Shown: positions 311-15,730 of the stretch, piece after piece
Numbering within the stretch: the stretch's first letter is position 1
Layout of the letters: each line of letters opens with the position of its first letter
DNA from: a virus
Lineage: Duplodnaviria > Heunggongvirae > Uroviricota > Caudoviricetes
Direction: 5' to 3' (one strand)
Virus record (IMG/VR): IMGVR_UViG_2563366867_000010
DNA: 15,730 nucleotides
Made by a program: the position numbers and the translations under genes
The notes under the pieces: generated by a model
The model's input: the letters and a program-made list of their open reading frames with translations, nothing else
What the model was told of the DNA's origin: nothing
Database searches by the model: none

Positions 311-338
311 ATTCTACAGTAAAACCCCGCGCTTTCAA
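311..338 (-). promoter_or_regulatory. Candidate sigma70 late promoter (PR'-like) directly downstream of Q
   Basis: On the minus strand: -35 TTGAAA (338..333, overlapping the Q stop codon), 16-nt spacer, -10 TAGAAT (316..311). Followed by a GNRA-type hairpin (rc of about 262..275, ctgccGTAAggcag). This position matches where lambdoid late promoters and qut sites lie. Confidence 0.4.
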
Positions 339-760
339 TTTCCCGTATGTCCGGAAAACTGACTGACCTGTGCCCCTGATCGTTCACGCTCAACGTATCT
401 GTCCATTTCCAGTTTTATTCCCTGCATAATCAACATCCCCTCAATAACACCTTCAGCTTTTTGCAGTACCCGCCCGGCCCAGCAATCAGAGCGCTCATGC
501 TTACGGCCCAGTCCCATAAGCGTCATCCCGAACACATAATAATCATACAGAAAATCATGCAAATCGCTGTTGTTGACGTTCAGTTGCGCCATGCAATTGC
601 TGATAATCAGCGCATCATCATCGGTACACTGAGGCCGTGATTTAACCTTTGATGGGATCACGCCCTTAAATCCGGCAGCGACGCCGGACCATGCCACACT
701 CTCATGATTATTTACCACCCATGCACCCCATCGGGACAGAACCTGTTGGATATCACGCAT
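335..760 (-). CDS. Phage antitermination protein Q (QuuD/QuuQ-like, lambdoid late-gene regulator)
   Basis: Translation [72 protein letters not shown] closely resembles the E. coli prophage Q antiterminator family from memory. Start chosen at the internal ATG 760 (GGAG 9 nt upstream); the ORF-track start at 784 has no Shine-Dalgarno. Confidence 0.85.
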
Positions 761-838
761 TATTCTGTACTCCGCTGTAACCATACTTTTTCTGATTTGA
801 ATGCTCAGGGGGAAAATGTCTACTGGATATCTCCGGCT

Positions 839-2671: not shown

Positions 2672-4330
2672 TTACTGACTCAGACTGTTTCTGTTTTTCT
2701 GAAGTTGTTGCTTTGCCTGCATGATCTGCCACGACTCACTGCCTTCCGGCACCCCAGACCGGACACCATGAAGCAGGGACAGAGAAAGCGCTTCGGGGGA
2801 TTTTTCCGTCATCTTCTCTGCCCGGCTACGCCCTCTGGCAAACCGGATGAATTTGTGTCTGATGTAATTACTGACCTCCGGGGTGATTTCCATCGGAAAA
2901 CCGCTCAGCCCGTCAGGCCATTCGCCGAACTTCTCCCGGAAAGTGTGAGCGCACCATCCATCGCTGACCGGTCGCCCCAGAGAGGCACGCTGACGCTGAT
3001 AGAATTTGATCTGACTCCACCAGGCCTGTTTGTCGCTTTTGGTGTAAATTTTTTCGTCCTTGCTGAGTTTCCTGATATTGCGGCGGGTATCTGTGTTCAC
3101 ATCCTCACCAGCCAGCGGTTTAAATCCGCATTTCGGACAGACATAAACACCTGCCGGTTTCATGAAATGACACCCCGGACATTCTTTCGGCAGTTTTTCT
3201 TCCCGAATTTCGTTACCACGTGATGATGACACCTGCATCCCGTCGTTTTTGCCGGGCAGTTCGTCATACTCAATATTTTCAGGAAATCCCAGGCGATGAA
3301 CCGTACCGGAATGGTCGAAAATCAGGCATGACTCCTTGCCTGGCGCTGTACGCAATCCTCTCCCAATCGCCTGAAGCCAGCGAATCTCTGATTTTGTCGG
3401 GCGTGCGTAAATGATGCACCGGACATCACTGTCAAATCCCGCCACCAGAACGCCAACGCTGACAATGATTTTCGTCGCTCCCGTTTCAAAACGACTGATC
3501 ATTAACTGACGCTCATCATGTGGCGTTTCAGCAACCATCACCTCTGCGTTAATTCCGGCTTTGTTGAACTGCATGGTCACGAAGCTGGCATGCGTTTTAT
3601 TGACGCAGAACGCCACTGTCGGTAAATCCCTTCCGTTACACAGCCAGTTATCGACAATATCGCCAACCAGATCCGCGCCGCACATAATCTCTGCCAGTTG
3701 TGATTCGTCGTAATCCCTGCCGTACTCCATTGAGACTTTCGTTTTTACACCTTCCAGATCCGGTTTCGTGGGCGCATAAAATTCGTAATTGCTCAGTTCG
3801 CCACGCTGGATCAGTTCCCCTATAGTGGTCGGCTTGAGAAGACGCTGGTAATAACGCCCCAGGAACGATGAAAAGGGTGTACCGGACAACCCAATCACCT
3901 TCACATTTCCCTCTGCAACCAGTCGTTCGATTTCCGTGAGGATGCGGCGCTTACGGAGATGCGCTTCATCAATAATCAGCAGGTCGATATTCTGAGGAAA
4001 ATCACGGCGAATCAGCGTATCCGCACTGGAAATCTGAATCAGTCGTGACGGGTCGTTATTGGGATGAGCACGCCAGATAAAGCTGATTTCATCCCCGGAA
4101 AGCCCGTACTGAACAAAGCGCTGTGCTGTCTGGTTGATCAAAATGGTATAAGGAACGACAAACAGAACGCGCATGCCACGGCTTACCAGACCAGCAGTGA
4201 TGAACGCCGCCAGGCCGGTTTTACCACTCCCTGTAGGCATGTACATCATGAAGGACTGATATGTTTTCCAGTCATGACGCAACATATTCAGCGCACGTTC
4301 CTGAGCAAAATTCGGCTTGATATTCAGCAT
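2672..4330 (-). CDS. Superfamily-2 DEAD/DEAH-box helicase with C-terminal Cys4 zinc ribbon (probable replicative helicase of the prophage)
   Basis: Walker A MPTGSGKT, motif II IIDEAH, motif III SGT, motif VI QAIGRGLR, plus CPGCHF..(10 aa)..CPKCG. GGGAG lies 6 nt upstream of ATG 4330. Confidence 0.85.
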   Translation of the reverse strand: MLNIKPNFAQERALNMLRHDWKTYQSFMMYMPTGSGKTGLAAFITAGLVSRGMRVLFVVPYTILINQTAQRFVQYGLSGDEISFIWRAHPNNDPSRLIQISSADTLIRRDFPQNIDLLIIDEAHLRKRRILTEIERLVAEGNVKVIGLSGTPFSSFLGRYYQRLLKPTTIGELIQRGELSNYEFYAPTKPDLEGVKTKVSMEYGRDYDESQLAEIMCGADLVGDIVDNWLCNGRDLPTVAFCVNKTHASFVTMQFNKAGINAEVMVAETPHDERQLMISRFETGATKIIVSVGVLVAGFDSDVRCIIYARPTKSEIRWLQAIGRGLRTAPGKESCLIFDHSGTVHRLGFPENIEYDELPGKNDGMQVSSSRGNEIREEKLPKECPGCHFMKPAGVYVCPKCGFKPLAGEDVNTDTRRNIRKLSKDEKIYTKSDKQAWWSQIKFYQRQRASLGRPVSDGWCAHTFREKFGEWPDGLSGFPMEITPEVSNYIRHKFIRFARGRSRAEKMTEKSPEALSLSLLHGVRSGVPEGSESWQIMQAKQQLQKNRNSLSQ

Positions 4331-4886: not shown

Positions 4887-4975
4887 TCTCAACTTATGCA
4901 CTAGCTTGGTAGTACACAGGTGCATCCTGAGAAGTGGGGTCTCAGCCCGTCGGTCACCTTTAAGACCAACACCAT

Positions 4976-5269
4976 TCAGGTACGCTGTTGCGTTCCTGCC
5001 AGGGGCGGCTGAGTCGTATACCCCTGTAATGCACGCCCGTGTGTTTCAACGAACCTGCGCAGCCGTACATTGGCTTCATGCCTCGCTCTGTTCTCCTTAC
5101 GGAATGAAACAGGCTCGGAATCAAAAGTAACTTCGTAAACCTCCGCGTATTTCAGGGCGACCTTCTGTCTCAGTGAGGAAGGCAGGCTCTGTAACTGCCG
5201 CTTAATCCACTCTGAATCTGCCTGGCTGTACCTGGCAGGCATCTCCATCTGAACGTAATCAGGGGACAT
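4976..5269 (-). CDS. Hypothetical early protein (cII-position)
   Basis: 97-aa ORF with GGAGG 4 nt upstream of ATG 5269. It starts 18 bp downstream of the stop of the Cro-position gene. No recognisable motif. Confidence 0.55.
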   Translation of the reverse strand: MSPDYVQMEMPARYSQADSEWIKRQLQSLPSSLRQKVALKYAEVYEVTFDSEPVSFRKENRARHEANVRLRRFVETHGRALQGYTTQPPLAGTQQRT

Positions 5270-5287
5270 ACAGCCTCCGGCAGAACA

Positions 5288-5497
5288 TCACGATTCATGA
5301 CTGGCATTCATGAGCGACGGATGCTGATAAGGAATTTTGGGATCCAGATGACAAAGGATCGCCACATCTTCCGGCACACCTCGGGTTTTCCACTTTCCAA
5401 CGCCCTGACTACCTCTAGGTTTTCCTCTCTTAGGGAAACGGCGACCAATTGCAGCATTGGTTTTAAACTCAGCTTTTAAAATTTCGTAAAGAGTCAT
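5288..5497 (-). CDS. Small basic protein at the Cro position (putative early regulator, divergent from the repressor)
   Basis: 69-aa ORF transcribed divergently from the CI-like repressor, with the operator cluster between them. It is Lys/Arg-rich, but I cannot recognise a classic HTH. The functional call is positional only. Confidence 0.45.
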   Translation of the reverse strand: MTLYEILKAEFKTNAAIGRRFPKRGKPRGSQGVGKWKTRGVPEDVAILCHLDPKIPYQHPSLMNASHES

Positions 5498-5513
5498 CTC
5501 TCACTCACTGATT

Positions 5514-5583
5514 GATACTTTAGCATCCATAAATATACAACAAATGAATCTAAAGTATCAAGAATATGTGCTACTTTAGTATC
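5514..5583. promoter_or_regulatory. Operator cluster (three 14-bp palindromic sites) with divergent promoters between the Cro-position gene and the repressor
   Basis: Sites GATACTTTAGCATC (5514..5527), GAATCTAAAGTATC (5546..5559) and GCTACTTTAGTATC (5570..5583), all variants of GATACTTTAGTATC. Candidate minus-strand promoter: -35 TTGATA (rc of 5556..5561), -10 TATATT (rc of 5532..5537), 18-nt spacer. Confidence 0.65.
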
Positions 5584-5607
5584 GACCGAAAAAACAGGAG
5601 AGATAAA

Positions 5608-6264
5608 ATGAGAACTTTGGGAGAGCGCCTTAGCAGCGCCAGGCAACGGGCAGGATTGACACAAGATGCATTAGCAAAAAAAGCCGGCATAACCCGCGTG
5701 GCTATAAGCAAAGCAGAGCAAGGACTTACTAAAAGCTTCAACGGAGATACTTTATTAAAGGTAGCCACAGCCCTAAACTGCTCTCCACAATGGCTACAAA
5801 ATGGAGAAGAACAATCTGTAAACTGGGAAAACAATGTTAAGAGTTGTCCTCAAAAAGACGCATTTCATTCCTATCCCGTTATTAACTGGGTCCAGGCCGG
5901 ACTATTCTCTACTGCTGGAGATGATTACAGCATGTATGACCATGATAACTGGAGACATTCTGTCAAATATGCAGGTGAAAGAGGTTTTTGGCTTGAAGTA
6001 CATGGTGATTCAATGACCTCGCCTGTTGGAATCACCTTTCCTGAGGGTATGTCTATTCTCGTAAACCCAGACAAAGCTGTACATTCAGGCTGTTACGTTA
6101 TCGCAAGAAAAAAATCAACCAACGAAGCAACATTCAAAAAATATGTGACTGAAATGGGAAGATCTTTCCTGAAACCACTCAATCCTCAGTATCCCATCAT
6201 TGAAATAGATGATGATTGTGAAATCGTCGGCGTGATCGTGGATGCCCGATGGGATATTTTCTAA
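5608..6264 (+). CDS. CI-like prophage repressor (N-terminal HTH_XRE + C-terminal S24 LexA-type peptidase domain)
   Basis: N-terminal HTH (LGERLSSARQRAGLTQDALAKKAGITRVAISKAEQG), Ala-Gly autocleavage context (VQAGLF), catalytic Ser in GDSM and Lys in FKKY. AGGAG lies 7 nt upstream of ATG 5608; the ORF-track start at 5566 is probably too far upstream. Confidence 0.85.
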   Translation: MRTLGERLSSARQRAGLTQDALAKKAGITRVAISKAEQGLTKSFNGDTLLKVATALNCSPQWLQNGEEQSVNWENNVKSCPQKDAFHSYPVINWVQAGLFSTAGDDYSMYDHDNWRHSVKYAGERGFWLEVHGDSMTSPVGITFPEGMSILVNPDKAVHSGCYVIARKKSTNEATFKKYVTEMGRSFLKPLNPQYPIIEIDDDCEIVGVIVDARWDIF

Positions 6265-6268
6265 GAAA

Positions 6269-6317
6269 GATACTTTAGTATCAAAAAACGCTTGCTCATG
6301 AATGATACTTTAGTTAC
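6269..6317. promoter_or_regulatory. Second operator pair (PL-like control region) downstream of the repressor gene
   Basis: Perfect palindrome GATACTTTAGTATC (6269..6282) and variant GATACTTTAGTTAC (6304..6317). Candidate plus-strand promoter: -35 TTGCTC (6292..6297), -10 TACCAT (6315..6320), overlapped by the second site. Confidence 0.6.
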
Positions 6318-6348
6318 CATGCTAAAAAGTAACTGAGGTATCATTAAT

Positions 6349-6759
6349 ATGTTCCAAAAAACTACGCTATCATGCATTGAAGATTTAAAAAATCTTGGCT
6401 CCCTCATTGCTCTTATCGCAAAAGCAGCGCCAGATACAACTCTTGCCAATGATATCGAGTCATGCGCCGGAATGGCGTGGGATATAATAAACAAAGTATC
6501 TCGCACATTATCTTTGTTAATTCATAAACAAAACATTTCTGATTGCCCCCATGAGATCCGCACCCAACGCGAAAGCTGCGGTCTATCCACCGCTGAACTC
6601 GCCACGCTGCTTGGAGTTGATGAAGAAACCATCATCCAGTGGGAGAACGGCAAGGCTGAACCTCTGGCAAGCCAGGTGATTCCTCTGGCAAATATACTTG
6701 ACTGCGATCCGATGTGGTTACTTACAAGTTTCCATTCTGACACGACAAAGGAATCGTAA
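6349..6759 (+). CDS. Hypothetical protein with C-terminal HTH_XRE domain (first gene of the leftward-type early operon)
   Basis: 136-aa ORF with GAGG 10 nt upstream. The C-terminal 55 aa (IRTQRESCGLSTAELATLLGVDEETIIQWENGKAEP..) is a clear XRE-type helix-turn-helix. The N-terminal 80 aa is unrecognised. Confidence 0.7.
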   Translation: MFQKTTLSCIEDLKNLGSLIALIAKAAPDTTLANDIESCAGMAWDIINKVSRTLSLLIHKQNISDCPHEIRTQRESCGLSTAELATLLGVDEETIIQWENGKAEPLASQVIPLANILDCDPMWLLTSFHSDTTKES

Positions 6760-6760
6760 G

Positions 6761-6952
6761 ATGAAAATGTTCAAAGGCCTCACCAACGAACCGGAAACAG
6801 CTTTTCATCACATTGCAGTACTGCTTGAAGCGGGGTTAATCATTTCGGCTTCCGGTGATGAAGAATGTGATGAACTTTCGGATGACATATTTTTACTGGC
6901 ACAACAATACGCCAGAAGCGCATGCGATGCATTTAAGGAACAAAGAACATGA
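6761..6952 (+). CDS. Small acidic protein, paralog family member 1
   Basis: 63 aa from ATG 6761, AAGGA 9 nt upstream, 1 nt after the preceding stop. Shares the SGD..D..FLL..S..C..F/Y motif with the next gene and with 7727..7921. Confidence 0.6.
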   Translation: MKMFKGLTNEPETAFHHIAVLLEAGLIISASGDEECDELSDDIFLLAQQYARSACDAFKEQRT

Positions 6953-7149
6953 AAACTCCCCTGATTATGCTTGAGGAAGTGGCAGCAGAAATAAAAGAAA
7001 ACACGTCAATGCTTGAGTTTATATTTAAAAACTCTGGTGATAACGGAGAGACAGATGATTTCTTACTTTGTATGATTCGTTCCATGAATAAAACCTGTGA
7101 AAAGGCTTACGAGTATGTTGATGCTCTGAGAACGAATAAAGGAAATTAA
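6949..7149 (+). CDS. Small acidic protein, paralog family member 2
   Basis: 66 aa. Its start overlaps the preceding stop (ATGA). Motif LEFIFKNSGDNGETDDFLLCMIRSMNKTCEKAYEY aligns with member 3 (LLQVIIDSGDIGSPDALNMMNCLFRSLSCTADKAEKH). Confidence 0.6.
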   Translation: MKTPLIMLEEVAAEIKENTSMLEFIFKNSGDNGETDDFLLCMIRSMNKTCEKAYEYVDALRTNKGN

Positions 7150-7221
7150 ACAGACAATCATACATAAAAACATGACGGTCTGCGGTCGGGAGTTCTCACT
7201 ATTTTAAAATGGGGATGACAC

Positions 7222-10711: not shown

Positions 10712-11070
10712 AAGAAGCTGATCTGAAAGCACTGCGTGACGCCGCACAAAATACCGTATATGGAGACAAGGGATGTGATCTGGAAGCATTTCACTCCCTT
10801 GCCACTCCGCCAGTTATCCTTGCGCTAATCAGTCACATAGAAAATCTGGAGAAAAAACTGGATGAAATCGTAACGTCAGAGATTAGCCCGAAGGCCTGGC
10901 TGAATAACCTTACGGGGGAAGTTTGCAGTATTGATGCCATGCCTGACGCCCGTAATGACAGAGAAACATACACCCCGCTTTATCCTGCCTGGCAGCGCAT
11001 TGCCGCCGCAGATGATAACGGCAGAGTGGCATGGATGTATACGCACAAAAAAGCAGGTTACAGGGTCTAA
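10708..11070 (+). CDS. 5' fragment of an early-left phage gene interrupted by IS4 (possibly Ea22-like; truncated 120-aa product)
   Basis: AGGGAG 8 nt upstream of ATG 10708. The reading frame runs into the IS4 left end, whose first three bases (TAA, 11068..11070) supply the stop codon. The same frame resumes immediately after the right target duplication. Confidence 0.6.
   Translation: MKEADLKALRDAAQNTVYGDKGCDLEAFHSLATPPVILALISHIENLEKKLDEIVTSEISPKAWLNNLTGEVCSIDAMPDARNDRETYTPLYPAWQRIAAADDNGRVAWMYTHKKAGYRV
11056..11067. repeat. Target-site duplication, left copy (GGTTACAGGGTC)
   Basis: An identical 12-mer flanks the IS4 on the other side at 12494..12505. Confidence 0.85.
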
Positions 11071-12493
11071 TGCCAGTCAGTTAAGCAACTGACTGGCTCT
11101 TTTTCGGGGCTGTGGGGTATTTCCAGGGCCTCTCCTTTACCACTCTCGGGAAGGCCCTTTCCCTTCTTGTCGGTAATTTCACAAGTTGTCCCATACTTGC
11201 AAGATCGCGCATCAGCTCCGGTATACGTCCCGGTGAAGCGCCCTGCAATGTCATCAGCATTCTCATCACCATTCCGCATGATTCTGAGAAACTCAGTTGA
11301 TTCGGCCAGTAACCTTTCAGATGTTCCGCCATTTTAATCATCTGATATCTCACCAGATTATAAGCCAGTAAGACACCCCACAGCTCTTGCTCCACAAGCT
11401 CCGGCTTTTTACTTCTCAGCGTCAGCCTGCTCCGTTGCATCGTCTGTTTTATCTCCCTGTATCCCAGTTCGATTTCCCAGCGATGACTGTACAGATCCCC
11501 CATTTCTCCTCCGGGGAAGCGCATGGCGTCCGTCATCGACGTCAGCAGATGGCAGACTTTTCCTTTGCGCGTCACGGTCAGCAGGCGGGCAGTCACTTCA
11601 TTTCCCAGTCCCGGCCACTTTTTTCGTGCCTGCGGGCTGGTTTTCAGCTTCACCAGATGATCGCCTTTACCCAGTTTTCTGATCTCTTCATATTGCGCTC
11701 CCTTTCTGAGAGGTATCATCCAGTGGCGGTGTTCTCCCGCCAGGCTCCAGGCATTTAACAGTCCCAGTGAGTAATAACCTTTATCCATTAACGTCAGAGT
11801 GTTATCGCCGGTTTGTTCTATAAGTTGCTCAGCAAGCTCATTTTCGCTGTTCTTCATCGTGCCGAAGGCTGCAGCCGTCAGCAGATGGCTGGTCAGTTCC
11901 ATCTGGCAGACCATTTTGACCTGCGGGTAGAGCGCCGGGTTCCCGGCATGTGTCTGGCGGGGGAAGGCTGCATCGTTCTCTGGTGTATCCGGTGTGCGCC
12001 AGAACACACCATCGATGGCCAGCAGGGTCAGGCCGCACCAGTGCGGATGCGGCGTGGCGTTATGCCAGAGCTGCGCTGTTTTCGTGAACACGCGGCGGAC
12101 AGCCTCACTTCCCAGGCGCTGGCGGGCCTGAATAACGGCACTGGGGGCAACGAAGGGGCGATTGCCCGGCAGCATGATGTCCAGGCGATTCACAATCTGG
12201 TGAAGAGGTTCTTTACGCTCAAGCGCCATGCCAACAATACACCAGACCATCATTTCGAGGGGAAGACGGCGCTTGCGTAGCGTTACAGTACCTGATTCGG
12301 CAAGGCAACGAGAGATGAGTTCGGGGTCGAGGTAATCCCCCAGAGAAGTCAGTGGGTTACGCAGAGAATCGTAACGGGATACCAGATCAAGAGCCTGTCC
12401 AATGTGCATAAAAAAATCCGGAAACAAGTGAGCGTTTCCGGATTCTTACACAGCCACTGGATCGGTCAACTGATCCTTAACTGATCGGCATTA
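11068..12493. mobile_element. Insertion sequence IS4, complete copy (1426 bp)
   Basis: Terminal inverted repeats TAATGCCAGTCAGTTAAG (11068..11085) and rc TAATGCCGATCAGTTAAG (12476..12493). A single transposase ORF fills the element. Flanked by a 12-bp direct repeat. Confidence 0.9.
11081..12409 (-). CDS. insG: IS4 transposase (DDE, IS4 family)
   Basis: 442-aa translation beginning [40 protein letters not shown].. matches the IS4 transposase as I recall it. The ORF-track start at 12427 is a TTG; the true ATG is at 12409. Confidence 0.9.
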
Positions 12494-12505
12494 GGTTACA
12501 GGGTC
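12494..12505. repeat. Target-site duplication, right copy (GGTTACAGGGTC)
   Basis: Identical to 11056..11067 and directly abuts the IS4 right inverted repeat. Confidence 0.85.
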
Positions 12506-13745: not shown

Positions 13746-15035
13746 ATGAGTAACGCATCATACCCGACAGGCGTTGAAAACCATGGCGGATCACTCCGCA
13801 TATGGTTTCACTATAACGGCAAACGTGTCAGAGAAAACCTCGGTGTTCCTGACACCGCCAAAAACCGGAAGATCGCAGGTGAACTTCGCACTTCCGTTTG
13901 TTTTGCAATAAGAATGGGGAGCTTCGACTACGCCGCGCAGTTCCCTAATTCCCCTAACCTGAAACATTTTGGTCTGGGAAAAAAAGAGATAACCATTAAG
14001 GCACTTTCGGAAAAATGGCTTGAGCTTAAGAAAATGGAAATAACAACAAATGCCATGGTCAGATACAAATCAGCTATCCGAAATTGCCTTGACTGCCTTG
14101 GAGGGAACAAACTGGCATCATCAATTACACAGGAAGATGTTCTCATTTTTCGTAAAGAATTATTAACGGGATATCAGTTGCCAAGAAAAATTCAGAGGAA
14201 GCCTATTAAAGGTCGTAGTGTACCTACTGTAAATAGCTATATGACAATTATCTCCGGGATGTTCCGTTTTGCGGCAAACAATGGGTATATAGGCAAAAAC
14301 CCTTTCAGTGAGCTTCCATCACTGAAAAGAGCGAAAACACCTCCCGATCCACTAACAAAAGATGAGTTTGCCAGACTGATTGATGCGTGCCACCACCAGC
14401 AAACTAAAAATTTCTGGTCGCTGGCTGTATATACCGGGATGCGGCATGGCGAACTGTGTGGGCTGGCATGGGAGGATATCGATCTGGAAGCGGGTACCTT
14501 GACCGTCAAAAGGAATTACACTCAGACAAAGGAATTTACACTACCCAAAACAGATGCAGGAACAAACAGGGTAATACAACTCATACAGCCAGCAATTGAC
14601 GTATTAAAAAATCAGGCGACATTAACCAGGCTTGGTAAACAATATCAGATAGAAGTAAAGCTGCGAGAGTATGGCCGGACAAGCACTCACTCATGCAGCT
14701 TTGTTTTCAATCCTCAGATATTAGATCGCACAGGTAACTCAGGAGTTCATTATGCCGTAACATCCATCAACAGAACATGGGAATCTGCATTAAAACGAGC
14801 AAAAATTCGCCATAGAAAAGCGTATCAGTCTCGGCATACTTATGCTTGCTGGGCTTTAACTGCCGGAGCAAATCCAAACTTCATAGCCAACCAGATGGGA
14901 CATGCGAATGCCCAGATGGTTTACAATGTTTACGGTGCATGGATGAAAGACAATAACCAGTCCCAGGTAGAAGTACTAAACAGAAAGCTATGTACTTATG
15001 TCCCACAGGTGCCCCAACGACTAAACAAAGCATAG
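13746..15035 (+). CDS. int: Tyrosine recombinase / phage integrase (lambda Int family)
   Basis: 429 aa with GGAGG upstream. C-terminal catalytic-domain signatures: R in YTGMRHGELCGLAWEDID, H..R in SRHTYACWALTAGANP, GHANAQMVYNVYGAWM with the presumed catalytic Tyr. Lies next to xis at the prophage end. Confidence 0.9.
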   Translation: MSNASYPTGVENHGGSLRIWFHYNGKRVRENLGVPDTAKNRKIAGELRTSVCFAIRMGSFDYAAQFPNSPNLKHFGLGKKEITIKALSEKWLELKKMEITTNAMVRYKSAIRNCLDCLGGNKLASSITQEDVLIFRKELLTGYQLPRKIQRKPIKGRSVPTVNSYMTIISGMFRFAANNGYIGKNPFSELPSLKRAKTPPDPLTKDEFARLIDACHHQQTKNFWSLAVYTGMRHGELCGLAWEDIDLEAGTLTVKRNYTQTKEFTLPKTDAGTNRVIQLIQPAIDVLKNQATLTRLGKQYQIEVKLREYGRTSTHSCSFVFNPQILDRTGNSGVHYAVTSINRTWESALKRAKIRHRKAYQSRHTYACWALTAGANPNFIANQMGHANAQMVYNVYGAWMKDNNQSQVEVLNRKLCTYVPQVPQRLNKA

Positions 15036-15079
15036 AATATATTTTTAAAATCAAATAGTTAATACATAGGTACAAGTAC

Positions 15080-15730
15080 ATGAACAATATGAACGTAATT
15101 ATTGCCGATGACCATCCGATAGTCTTGTTCGGTATTCGCAAATCACTTGAGCAAATTGAGTGGGTGAATGTTGTCGGCGAATTTGAAGACTCTACAGCAC
15201 TGATCAACAACTTGCCGAAACTGGATGCACATGTGTTGATTACCGATCTCTCCATGCCTGGCGATAAGTACGGCGATGGCATTACCTTAATCAAGTACAT
15301 CAAGCGCCATTTCCCAAGCCTGTCGATCATTGTTCTGACCATGAACAACAACCCGGCGATTCTTAGTGCGGTATTGGATCTGGATATCGAAGGGATCGTG
15401 CTGAAACAAGGTGCACCGACCGATCTGCCGAAAGCTCTCGCCGCGCTGCAGAAAGGGAAGAAATTTACCCCGGAAAGCGTTTCTCGCCTGTTGGAAAAAA
15501 TCAGTGCTGGTGGTTATGGTGACAAGCGTCTCTCGCCAAAAGAGAGTGAAGTTCTGCGCCTGTTTGCGGAAGGCTTCCTGGTGACCGAGATCGCTAAAAA
15601 GCTGAACCGCAGTATTAAAACCATCAGTAGCCAGAAGAAATCTGCGATGATGAAGCTGGGTGTCGAGAACGATATTGCTCTGCTGAATTATCTCTCTTCT
15701 GTGACGTTAAGTCCGGCAGATAAAGACTAA
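15080..15730 (+). CDS. rcsB: Response regulator RcsB (Rcs phosphorelay, LuxR/FixJ-type HTH)
   Basis: 216-aa translation MNNMNVIIADDHPIVLFGIRKSLEQIEWVNVVGEFEDSTALINNLPKLDAHVLITDLSMPGDKYGDG..LSPADKD matches E. coli RcsB essentially end to end as I recall it. Receiver domain with phospho-acceptor Asp in LITDLSMPG; C-terminal LuxR-type HTH. Confidence 0.95.
   Translation: MNNMNVIIADDHPIVLFGIRKSLEQIEWVNVVGEFEDSTALINNLPKLDAHVLITDLSMPGDKYGDGITLIKYIKRHFPSLSIIVLTMNNNPAILSAVLDLDIEGIVLKQGAPTDLPKALAALQKGKKFTPESVSRLLEKISAGGYGDKRLSPKESEVLRLFAEGFLVTEIAKKLNRSIKTISSQKKSAMMKLGVENDIALLNYLSSVTLSPADKD

What the first reader, a model, noticed from the sequence alone, without database searches (positions are those of the whole stretch)
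5514..6317. Five copies of a 14-bp palindromic operator (GATACTTTAGTATC) in two clusters flanking the repressor gene
Three sites lie between the divergent Cro-position gene and the repressor, with centre spacings of 32 and 24 bp. Two more, one a perfect palindrome, lie just downstream of the repressor in front of the next operon, with 35-bp spacing. This mirrors lambda OR/OL organisation and defines the immunity specificity of this prophage. The second cluster overlaps the candidate promoter of the operon that starts with the C-terminal-HTH gene.
Basis: seen in the sequence. Interest (0 to 1): 0.45.

Follow-up and report, generated by a model that had tools for sequence, protein, structure and literature searches.

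The report
Prophage repressor operators, OR and OL
The five repeats are real and are very probably the DNA sites where this E. coli prophage's lambda-type repressor, and probably its Cro protein, switch off the two early promoters; this is a well-preserved but ordinary example of a textbook genetic switch.

Summary
Five 14-bp GATACT-TT-AGTATC-like sites lie at 5514, 5546, 5570, 6269 and 6304, spaced 32, 24 and 35 bp. None of 200 shuffles gave as many matches. They are the five best PWM hits in 62 kb covering the whole prophage.

The window is an E. coli lambdoid prophage. A CI-type repressor (HTH plus S24 autoprotease, 5608-6264) sits between the two clusters. The divergent 69-aa gene is predicted to have a Cro fold.

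Comparative data support the operator reading. Prophages of seven enterobacterial genera whose repressors carry the recognition helix TRVAISKAE keep the same sites at the same spacing, while the DNA between them diverges (29/42 invariant columns in sites, 4/48 outside). Repressors with other helices have other half-sites.

- Site 2 overlaps the PR -35.
- Site 1 covers the PR start.
- Site 3 overlaps a conserved TGnTACTTT candidate for PRM.
- Site 5 overlaps the PL -10.

- The "perfect palindrome" has an asymmetric TT centre.
- A weak sixth site probably exists at 6329-6342.
- The specificity is shared by a family and is not unique to this prophage.

Repressor binding itself is untested. I class this as a new member of a known kind, of low to moderate interest.

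The parts
5514..5527 (.). Operator site 1 (OR1-like), GATACTTTAGCATC. It lies 16 nt from the cro-like start codon, over the predicted PR start.
   Evidence: A site at the same position is conserved in relatives.
5546..5559 (.). Operator site 2 (OR2-like), GAATCTAAAGTATC on the plus strand. Its right half plus the flanking AA forms the PR -35 hexamer TTGATA on the minus strand.
   Evidence: In 7 diverse loci, 12 of its 14 columns are invariant.
5570..5583 (.). Operator site 3 (OR3-like), GCTACTTTAGTATC. It overlaps the candidate PRM -10.
6269..6282 (.). Operator site 4 (distal OL site), GATACTTTAGTATC. It is the best match of all, starts 5 nt after the last base of the repressor stop codon, and lies about 10 bp upstream of the PL -35.
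6304..6317 (.). Operator site 5 (OL site over the PL spacer and -10), GATACTTTAGTTAC. The conserved variant half GTTAC supplies the TAC of the -10 hexamer TACCAT.
6329..6342 (.). Candidate sixth operator, weak: GTAACTGAGGTATC, an inverted copy of site 5 lying 25 bp downstream of it. It contains the Shine-Dalgarno GAGG (6335-6338) of the next gene.
   Evidence: PWM score is only 8.5 bits, rank 14 of 62,004 positions. The site is conserved in the E. coli relatives. Photorhabdus has a good site, GAAACCAAAGTATC, at the equivalent position, 24 bp after its second OL site and away from any start codon.
5608..6264 (+). CI-type repressor, 218 aa: an N-terminal HTH (434 Cro / P22 c2-like) and a C-terminal S24 autoprotease domain.
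   Evidence: RefSeq annotates the near-identical locus as a LexA family protein.
5288..5497 (-). Cro-like protein, 69 aa, with a predicted all-helical Cro fold. It is the first gene of the PR operon.
   Evidence: (phrog_4749, function unknown).
5532..5561 (-). Predicted PR: -35 TTGATA (5561-5556), an 18-nt spacer, -10 TATATT (5537-5532).
   Evidence: 10 of 12 matches. The -35 is invariant and the -10 position is conserved in relatives.
5569..5577 (+). Candidate PRM: an extended -10, TGnTACTTT, inside site 3. This is inferred.
   Evidence: T5569 and G5570 are invariant in 25 distinct relatives and in 7 diverse loci, although position -1 of the other sites varies. No good -35 was found, and the consensus scan did not call this promoter.
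6292..6320 (+). Predicted PL: -35 TTGCTC (6292-6297), a 17-nt spacer, -10 TACCAT (6315-6320).
   Evidence: Read from the sequence. The same layout in relatives has better -35 hexamers: TTGCCA, TTGACA, TTGACC. The consensus scan did not call it because the -35 here matches only 3 of 6.
6349..6759 (+). First gene of the PL operon: 136 aa, with a C-terminal HTH_3 domain and an N-terminal domain of unknown function.
   Evidence: phrog_4739.
6301..6345 (+). Inverted repeat formed by sites 5 and 6. As RNA it is a 17-bp hairpin that includes the Shine-Dalgarno sequence. It could only form in transcripts that start upstream of PL.
   Evidence: -19.1 kcal/mol, z = -6.7.

Best explanation
The sites are the operators of a lambdoid immunity region.

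**Proposed mechanism.**
- Dimers of the 218-aa CI-type repressor bind each 14-bp dyad. The half-site is G-A-T-A-C-T-W, with G1, C5 and T6 invariant in all ten half-sites and an A/T-rich centre. This geometry resembles the 14-bp operators of phage 434.
- At OR, occupation of site 1 (over the PR start) and site 2 (over the PR -35) shuts off the cro-replication-Q operon.
- Site 3 overlaps the likely -10 of the repressor's own promoter. This gives negative autoregulation and a target for Cro.
- At OL, site 5 (over the PL spacer and -10), helped by site 4 (about -51) and perhaps a weak site 6 (about +3 to +16), shuts off the early-left operon that runs to xis and int.
- SOS-induced RecA would trigger self-cleavage of the repressor at its conserved Ala-Gly site and release both promoters.
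- The Cro-fold protein then presumably binds the same sites to lock in lytic growth.

**What is shown and what is inferred.**
- Shown here: the sites, their enrichment, their conservation and register, the co-variation with the repressor helix, the protein domains, and the promoter-like hexamers.
- Inferred: actual binding, the order of site occupancy, cooperativity, transcription start points, and the identity of PRM.
For: - Enrichment and exclusivity.
- The repressor has HTH and S24 domains and lambda-CI-like cleavage and catalytic residues.
- The divergent gene has a Cro fold.
- The PR match overlaps site 2.
- Identical site offsets occur in about 65 IMG/VR relatives with the same helix 2-3.
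- The same three OR sites (32 and 24 bp apart) and the OL pair (34-35 bp apart) occur in Photorhabdus, Pantoea, Yersinia, Phytobacter, Raoultella and Xenorhabdus, among otherwise diverged DNA.
- Invariant columns number 29/42 inside sites and 4/48 outside, Fisher p=2e-9. All four outside columns fall in promoter elements.
- A different recognition helix goes with a different half-site. SRMAISKIE goes with TAAAC, SRVTISKIE with GAAAC-type sites, and the P22-like SNAAISQWE with P22-type sites.
- The operators persist in loci that lack the 136-aa HTH gene, which argues against that protein being the binder.
Against: - No binding data exist. I found none in the searchable literature for this sequence.
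- The PL -35 in this window is poor (TTGCTC, 3 of 6), and the consensus scan did not call PL or PRM.
- If PRM is the TGnTACTTT element, site 2 is centred near -32. That does not fit the lambda-style activation geometry of about -42, so positive autoregulation may not apply.
- The footprint analysis was anchored on site 1, so site 1 columns are partly circular. Sites 2 and 3 are not.
- Co-variation cannot separate CI from Cro as the binder.
Confidence: 0.85

Rival explanations
1. The sites are bound mainly by a regulator other than CI. Candidates are the Cro-like protein alone, or the 136-aa HTH protein encoded just downstream of the second cluster, in which case the sites would be auto-regulatory rather than CI operators.
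For: - Cro is expected to share operators with CI, and co-variation cannot separate the two.
- The 136-aa protein has an HTH_3 domain, and its gene starts 7 nt after site 6.
Against: - Photorhabdus and Pantoea loci keep the full operator set but have no HTH gene downstream of OL.
- The half-site changes together with the CI recognition helix, whereas the putative Cro helix (SQGVGKWK) is almost invariant across operator types.
Confidence: 0.07
2. The repeats are promoter elements or duplication remnants, not protein-binding dyads. TTGATAC resembles a -35 hexamer, so the motif might simply mark several promoters.
For: Three of the four consensus promoter hits use TTGATA or neighbouring bases of a site.
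Against: - Both arms of the dyad, at a fixed 4-bp separation, are conserved. This includes arms that belong to no promoter hexamer, such as the left half of site 1 and the right half of site 3.
- The orientation of the central TTTA/TAAA flips between sites and between relatives, as expected for a symmetric dimer.
- The minus-strand hit at 6284-6256 is not conserved in spacing in relatives.
Confidence: 0.03
3. The palindromes act at the RNA level, as hairpins for termination, processing or control of translation, rather than as DNA operators.
For: - Sites 5 and 6 fold into a 17-bp hairpin (-19.1 kcal/mol, z = -6.7) that includes the Shine-Dalgarno sequence of the next gene.
- No terminator separates the repressor gene from OL in the E. 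coli clade.
Against: - Single sites fold weakly (-3.9 kcal/mol), and no U-run follows them.
- The hairpin between adjacent sites is an automatic by-product of near-palindromic repeats.
- Stem changes in relatives are three wobble-compatible substitutions and one break, with no compensatory pair.
- Photorhabdus pairs only 11 of 14 positions.
- This could be an added layer on top of operator function, not a replacement for it.
Confidence: 0.05

Closest known systems
Phage lambda immunity region (cI, cro, OR1-3, OL1-3, PR/PRM/PL)
   Same: - The gene order is cro <- OR -> cI ... OL -> early-left operon, ending in xis-int.
- The repressor's C-terminal domain is homologous to lambda CI (E=1.6e-34), with the cleavage site and Ser/Lys dyad aligned.
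- OR is tripartite and overlaps divergent promoters.
- A Q antiterminator lies downstream.
   Different: - The sites are 14 bp rather than 17 bp, and the operator sequence is unrelated.
- The N-terminal domain is of the HTH_3 (434/P22) type.
- Site spacings are 32/24 and 35/25 bp, rather than 24/23.
- No rexAB genes and no terminator lie between cI and OL.
- The gene at the N position is an HTH protein.
- The geometry of site 2 relative to the candidate PRM does not match lambda's activation geometry.
Phage 434 repressor/Cro and their 14-bp operators (ACAA-N6-TTGT)
   Same: - The operator length is the same (14 bp), with conserved outer bases and an A/T-rich centre of variable orientation.
- The N-terminal domain matches 434 Cro (E=3e-9) and 434 repressor (E=1.5e-5).
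   Different: - The outer bases are GATAC, not ACAA.
- The recognition helix is TRVAISKAEQG, against TQQSIEQLENG as I recall it for 434.
- The spacing between sites differs.
Stx phage 933W immunity region
   Same: - It has five natural operator sites, three in OR and two in OL, with no OL3 (PMC3317979, PMC5977221).
- The prophage here is of the Stx-phage type, with an N4-gp56-type capsid gene and a SASA-family esterase downstream of Q.
   Different: - 933W sites are 15 bp around a central base pair.
- The repressor here is only about 36% identical to the cI repressors of some Stx2-converting phages.
- A weak third OL site may exist here.
CI repressors of Stx1a-converting phages (e.g. LC567825) and related E. 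coli prophages
   Same: - Protein identity is 86-88%, with an identical helix 2-3.
- The operators sit at identical offsets.
   Different: - About 25% of the DNA differs.
- The weak half-sites differ. For example, the distal OL site is GAAACCAAAGTATC in those phages and the perfect GATACTTTAGTATC here.
- Whether the phages are homo-immune is untested.

Membership tests
Lambdoid CI/Cro immunity region | Repressor with an N-terminal HTH and a C-terminal S24 (LexA-like) self-cleaving domain | tested here: met
   Peptidase_S24 at 8.7e-23 and HTH_3 at 3.9e-14. Lambda CI at 1.6e-34, with the QAG cleavage site, the Ser in GDSM and the Lys in FKK aligned.
Lambdoid CI/Cro immunity region | A small Cro protein encoded divergently from the repressor | tested here: met
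Lambdoid CI/Cro immunity region | Three dyad operators between cI and cro that overlap PR and PRM | tested here: inconclusive
   The three sites and a 10/12 PR match overlapping site 2 are present. PRM is only a conserved TGnTACTTT candidate, with no mapped start.
Lambdoid CI/Cro immunity region | A second operator cluster (OL) over the early-left promoter | tested here: met
   Sites 4 and 5 flank and overlap a -35/17/-10 arrangement that is conserved across genera. The -35 is weak in this window.
Lambdoid CI/Cro immunity region | The repressor physically binds the operators and confers immunity | not testable with these tools
   This needs EMSA or footprinting and superinfection tests.
Phage 434-type operator/repressor | A 14-bp dyad with conserved outer bases and a centre that is not contacted | tested here: met
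   G1, C5 and T6 are invariant in 10 of 10 half-sites. The centre TTTA/TAAA flips orientation.
Phage 434-type operator/repressor | Outer sequence ACAA...TTGT (434 immunity specificity) | tested here: not met
   The outer sequence is GATAC...GTATC.
933W-type immunity | A 15-bp operator symmetric about a central base pair, with a 933W-like repressor | tested here: not met
   The sites are 14 bp. Identity to the cI repressors of some Stx2-converting phages is about 36%. 933W site properties are taken from PMC3317979.
Host LexA SOS box | CTGT-N8-ACAG consensus | tested here: not met
   The motif is GATAC-N4-GTATC. The RefSeq label 'LexA family protein' reflects only the S24 domain.

The most novel reading that the evidence does not exclude
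In the E. coli clade of this family, the terminator that follows the repressor gene in other genera is missing. Repressor transcripts should therefore run through OL into the early-left operon in a lysogen. The operator pair formed by sites 5 and 6 would then do double duty. As DNA, it binds repressor. As RNA in read-through transcripts, it folds into a 17-bp hairpin that buries the Shine-Dalgarno sequence of the first early-left gene. Transcripts that start at PL, inside the loop, lack the 5' arm and can be translated. This would be a transcript-origin-dependent translational gate built out of operator DNA. Separately, the family offers a natural series of helix-3 and half-site changes (GATAC, GAAAC, TAAAC) from which recognition rules could be read.
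Probability: 0.2. Interest if true: 0.5.

Novelty: new member of a known kind. Interest (0 to 1): 0.25.

Why it matters
- It gives a concrete, testable operator map (sites, promoters, likely occupancy logic) for an immunity type that occurs in Stx1a-converting phages and in about 190 of 5426 complete E. coli genomes. I could find no published operator for it.
- It allows the 69-aa 'hypothetical protein' family (phrog_4749, no Pfam) to be annotated as Cro-like.
- It predicts which prophages may be homo-immune. That bears on superinfection and on the induction behaviour of toxin-converting phages.
- It does not change how lambdoid switches are understood.

Tried and rejected
- **Exact 14-mer scan of IMG/VR.** It returned 120+ isolated single hits in unrelated contigs, which is chance background. 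It was uninformative and I did not use it.
- **Sequence search of the Cro-like protein against the PDB and Pfam.** Neither gave a real match. The PDB hits to topoisomerase I, at E about 1, are noise.
- **Consensus promoter hits at 5582-5609 (+), 6344-6373 (+) and 6284-6256 (-).** I rejected all three. The first would start transcription downstream of the repressor ATG, and none is conserved in relatives.
- **A plus-strand TTGATA at 5512-5517 as a PRM -35.** I rejected it because relatives have CCGGATAC or CAGATAC at that place.
- **Full-text searches for the operator strings.** They returned only unrelated eukaryotic and viral primers.
- **The 'two places' in strain DETEC-S792.** I considered using them to test hetero-immunity, but could not locate the second place with the tools available.
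- **Covariation support for the site 5/6 hairpin.** There is too little variation, so the result is inconclusive.

Full report
**What the window is.** Region 4900-7200 is 99.9% identical to a chromosomal segment of E. coli DETEC-S792. The annotation there and of the neighbouring 50 kb shows a roughly 42-kb lambdoid prophage inserted between rcsD and rcsB. In window orientation the order is:
- Q antiterminator (335-784, minus strand)
- primase, and a DEAD-box helicase (2672-4330, minus strand)
- small ORFs
- a 69-aa gene (5288-5497, minus strand)
- a 218-aa LexA-family repressor (5608-6264, plus strand)
- a 136-aa HTH protein (6349-6759, plus strand)
- a string of small early-left genes, then xis, int and rcsB

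This is the lambda map read right to left. Both repeat clusters sit where lambda has OR and OL.

**The observation.** The five sites, their sequences and their spacings of 32, 24 and 35 bp are as reported.
- At up to 3 mismatches the motif is about ten times over-represented: 9 strand-matches against 0.92 expected, and 0 of 200 shuffles reached 9.
- I built a half-site weight matrix from the ten half-sites and scanned 62 kb covering the whole near-identical prophage and 18 kb of flanking chromosome. The five sites rank first to fifth at 15.6-22.9 bits. The sixth hit scores 11.0 bits, below what shuffled sequence produces.
- No other operator-grade copy exists in the prophage, so the motif is not a generic repeat.
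- G1, C5 and T6 of the half-site GATACTW are invariant in all ten half-sites.
- The "perfect palindrome" at 6269 has perfect 6-bp arms around a non-self-complementary TT.

**The proteins.**
- The repressor has HTH_3 and Peptidase_S24 domains.
- Its C-terminal domain aligns with lambda CI at E=1.6e-34. The Ala-Gly cleavage site and the catalytic Ser and Lys are in register. RecA-stimulated self-cleavage is therefore expected, by inference from the LexA/CI family.
- Its N-terminal domain is closest to 434 Cro, P22 c2 and 434 repressor.
- The 69-aa divergent gene has no Pfam or PDB sequence match and belongs to a PHROG of unknown function.
- Its family is 64-89% identical across Enterobacterales.
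- Calling it a Cro-position gene is therefore justified.

**Comparative evidence, the core of the argument.**
- A scan of IMG/VR with the repressor gave 80 loci. About 65 encode repressors 86-88% identical to this one, with an identical helix 2-3 (LTQDALAKKAG[IV]TRVAISKAEQG).
- All of those carry GATAC/GTATC-type 14-mers 94, 62 and 38 nt before the ATG, within 1 nt of the offsets here, and an OL pair 35 bp apart, although the DNA is only about 75% identical.
- I then used Cro homologues as an independent route to distant loci, and a genome scan with the invariant site 2-site 3 core. In that scan 6 of 8 hits are real and 2 are chance hits in Firmicute MAGs.
- Both routes found the same architecture in Photorhabdus, Pantoea, Yersinia, Phytobacter and Raoultella: the recognition helix TRVAISKAE, OR sites spaced 32 and 24 bp, and OL sites spaced 34-35 bp. 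In Xenorhabdus the three OR sites are in register, but the contig held ends before the repressor gene and OL.
- In an ungapped comparison of seven diverse OR regions anchored only on site 1, 29 of 42 site columns are invariant against 4 of 48 non-site columns (Fisher p=2e-9).
- Relatives with other recognition helices have other half-sites at equivalent places:

| Recognition helix | Half-site type |
|---|---|
| SRMAISKIE | TAAAC-N4-GTTTA |
| SRVTISKIE (Providencia) | GAAAC/GTTTC |
| P22 c2-like SNAAISQWE | P22-type |

- The operators persist in Photorhabdus and Pantoea loci that have no HTH gene after OL. The 136-aa protein is therefore not the required binder.

**Promoters.**
- *PR.* The best consensus match in the region is on the minus strand: TTGATA (5561-5556), an 18-nt spacer, then TATATT (5537-5532), 10 of 12. 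Its -35 is made from the right half of site 2 plus the flanking AA, which is invariant in relatives. The T6 position of the -10 is also invariant. With a start near 5525, site 1 covers about -2 to +12 and site 2 about -34 to -21 (inference).
- *PRM.* The fourth invariant non-site column is T5569. Together with G5570 and TACTTT (5572-5577) it reads TGnTACTTT, an extended -10. I propose this as the repressor's own promoter, PRM. Site 3 would then cover its -10. This rests on conservation alone, and it places site 2 near -32, which does not fit lambda-type activation.
- *PL.* The arrangement is TTGCTC (6292-6297), a 17-nt spacer, then TACCAT (6315-6320). It is weak here but has the same layout in relatives: TTGCCA in E. 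coli relatives, TTGACA-17-TACATT in Photorhabdus and TTGACC in Pantoea.
- The conserved "wrong" half of site 5 (GTTAC) supplies the TAC of the -10, which explains why it never matches the consensus.
- With these assumed starts, each promoter has one site centred near -51, one over the core promoter and one at the start.

**A sixth site.**
- GTAACTGAGGTATC (6329-6342) is the inverted copy of site 5, 25 bp downstream of it. Read on the minus strand it matches site 5 at 12 of 14 positions.
- On score alone it is within noise (8.5 bits, rank 14 of 62,004), and it contains the Shine-Dalgarno sequence of the next gene. Its conservation in E. coli relatives is therefore ambiguous.
- Photorhabdus, however, has a good site (GAAACCAAAGTATC) at the same relative position, 24 bp after its second OL site and far from any start codon.
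- L070, Pantoea, Yersinia, Phytobacter and Raoultella lack it.
- I rate it a probable weak operator. OL would then be tripartite in some members and bipartite in others, as in 933W, which has three OR sites, two OL sites and no OL3 (PMC3317979, PMC5977221).

**RNA-level reading.**
- Single sites fold weakly (-3.9 kcal/mol).
- Sites 5 and 6 together make a 17-bp hairpin (-19.1 kcal/mol, z = -6.7) that includes the Shine-Dalgarno sequence.
- The E. coli clade has no terminator between the repressor gene and OL. Seven of the other loci examined have a clear hairpin plus T-run there: L070, L072, and the Photorhabdus, Pantoea, Yersinia, Phytobacter and Raoultella loci. The Providencia locus has a shorter, imperfect stem before its T-run.
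- Read-through repressor transcripts could therefore carry a masked ribosome-binding site, while PL transcripts that start in the loop would not.
- Variation among relatives gives three wobble-compatible changes, one break and no compensatory pair. This remains a speculative extra layer.

**Comparison with known systems and novelty.**
- In function and layout this is a lambda-type switch. In operator geometry and N-terminal domain it is 434/P22-like. In site count it resembles 933W.
- It fails the sequence-specific tests for each: it has neither ACAA nor a 15-bp site, and it is not an SOS box.
- The nearest deposited phages are Stx1a-converting phages (87.6% identical CI). The next nearest are P22-like phages at about 45%.
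- I found no paper containing these operator strings. The library is incomplete, so absence there is not proof.
- The exact immunity region is rare: at least 99% identity in 3 of 5426 complete E. coli genomes. The roughly 75%-identical class occurs in about 190. Because helix and operator core are shared, the specificity is a family property. Whether the members are cross-immune is untested.

**Verdict.** This is a new member of a known kind, of low to moderate interest.

Noticed in passing
window 11068-12492 (transposase ORF 11081-12427, minus strand): There is an IS4-family insertion. The 448-aa protein has Nterm_IS4 and DDE_Tnp_1 domains. The element has 19-nt terminal inverted repeats (11067-11085 and 12476-12494) and a 13-bp target duplication, AGGTTACAGGGTC (11055-11067 and 12493-12505). 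It is absent from the otherwise 99.9% identical prophage of strain DETEC-S792, where it would interrupt a 300-aa hypothetical gene of the early-left operon between PL and xis/int. It may therefore be polar on excision functions.
   Followed up: partly
window 6264-6349; L070, L072, L205, L208, L209, L212-L217: No intrinsic terminator separates the repressor gene from OL/PL in the E. coli clade. Seven of the relatives examined from other genera or clades have a clear hairpin plus T-run at that place; the Providencia locus (L208) has only a shorter, imperfect stem before its T-run.
   Followed up: partly
window 6301-6345: Sites 5 and 6 form a 17-bp inverted repeat. As RNA it folds at -19.1 kcal/mol (z = -6.7) and includes the Shine-Dalgarno GAGG of the 136-aa gene. 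The predicted PL start lies in its loop.
   Followed up: partly
window 6349-6759: The gene at the position of lambda N encodes a 136-aa protein with a C-terminal HTH_3 domain and an uncharacterised N-terminal half (phrog_4739). Its C-terminal part resembles a 'CII-like regulator' PHROG. I recognised no N-like antiterminator, although a Q antiterminator is present at 335-784.
   Followed up: no
window 5288-5497 and proteins P0001-P0042: The Cro-like protein family is unusually well conserved, at 64-89% identity from Escherichia to Photorhabdus and Providencia. It has 25 invariant positions, including a VGKW motif and a Cys-His pair (C49, H50), and no Pfam model.
   Followed up: partly
L001 (DETEC-S792) equivalent of window 6304-6317; L004 equivalent of window 5514-5540: Near-identical prophages carry point differences inside operators and promoter elements. 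In DETEC-S792, site 5 reads GATGC. In L004, site 1 reads ...GCGTC, the PR -10 region differs, and the PL -35 is TTGCCC. These are possible natural tuning or operator variants.
   Followed up: no
window 5118-5131 and 5746-5759: Two further weak motif-like matches lie within 0.5 kb of the operator clusters: GAATCAAAAGTAAC (10.2 bits) and GATACTTTATTAAA (9.5 bits). Both are inside coding sequence, score within the noise range and have only one good half-site.
   Followed up: no
L084/L001 (DETEC-S792 chromosome 1,651,666-1,693,458); window 13746-15730: The prophage lies between rcsD and rcsB, with int adjacent to rcsB. Between Q and the lysis genes, where Stx phages carry stx, it has a frameshifted hok/gef gene, an HsdM-family methyltransferase and a restriction S subunit. 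A SASA-family esterase and an N4-gp56-type capsid gene follow. An S6-family autotransporter peptidase and a YadA-like adhesin lie at the far end.
   Followed up: no
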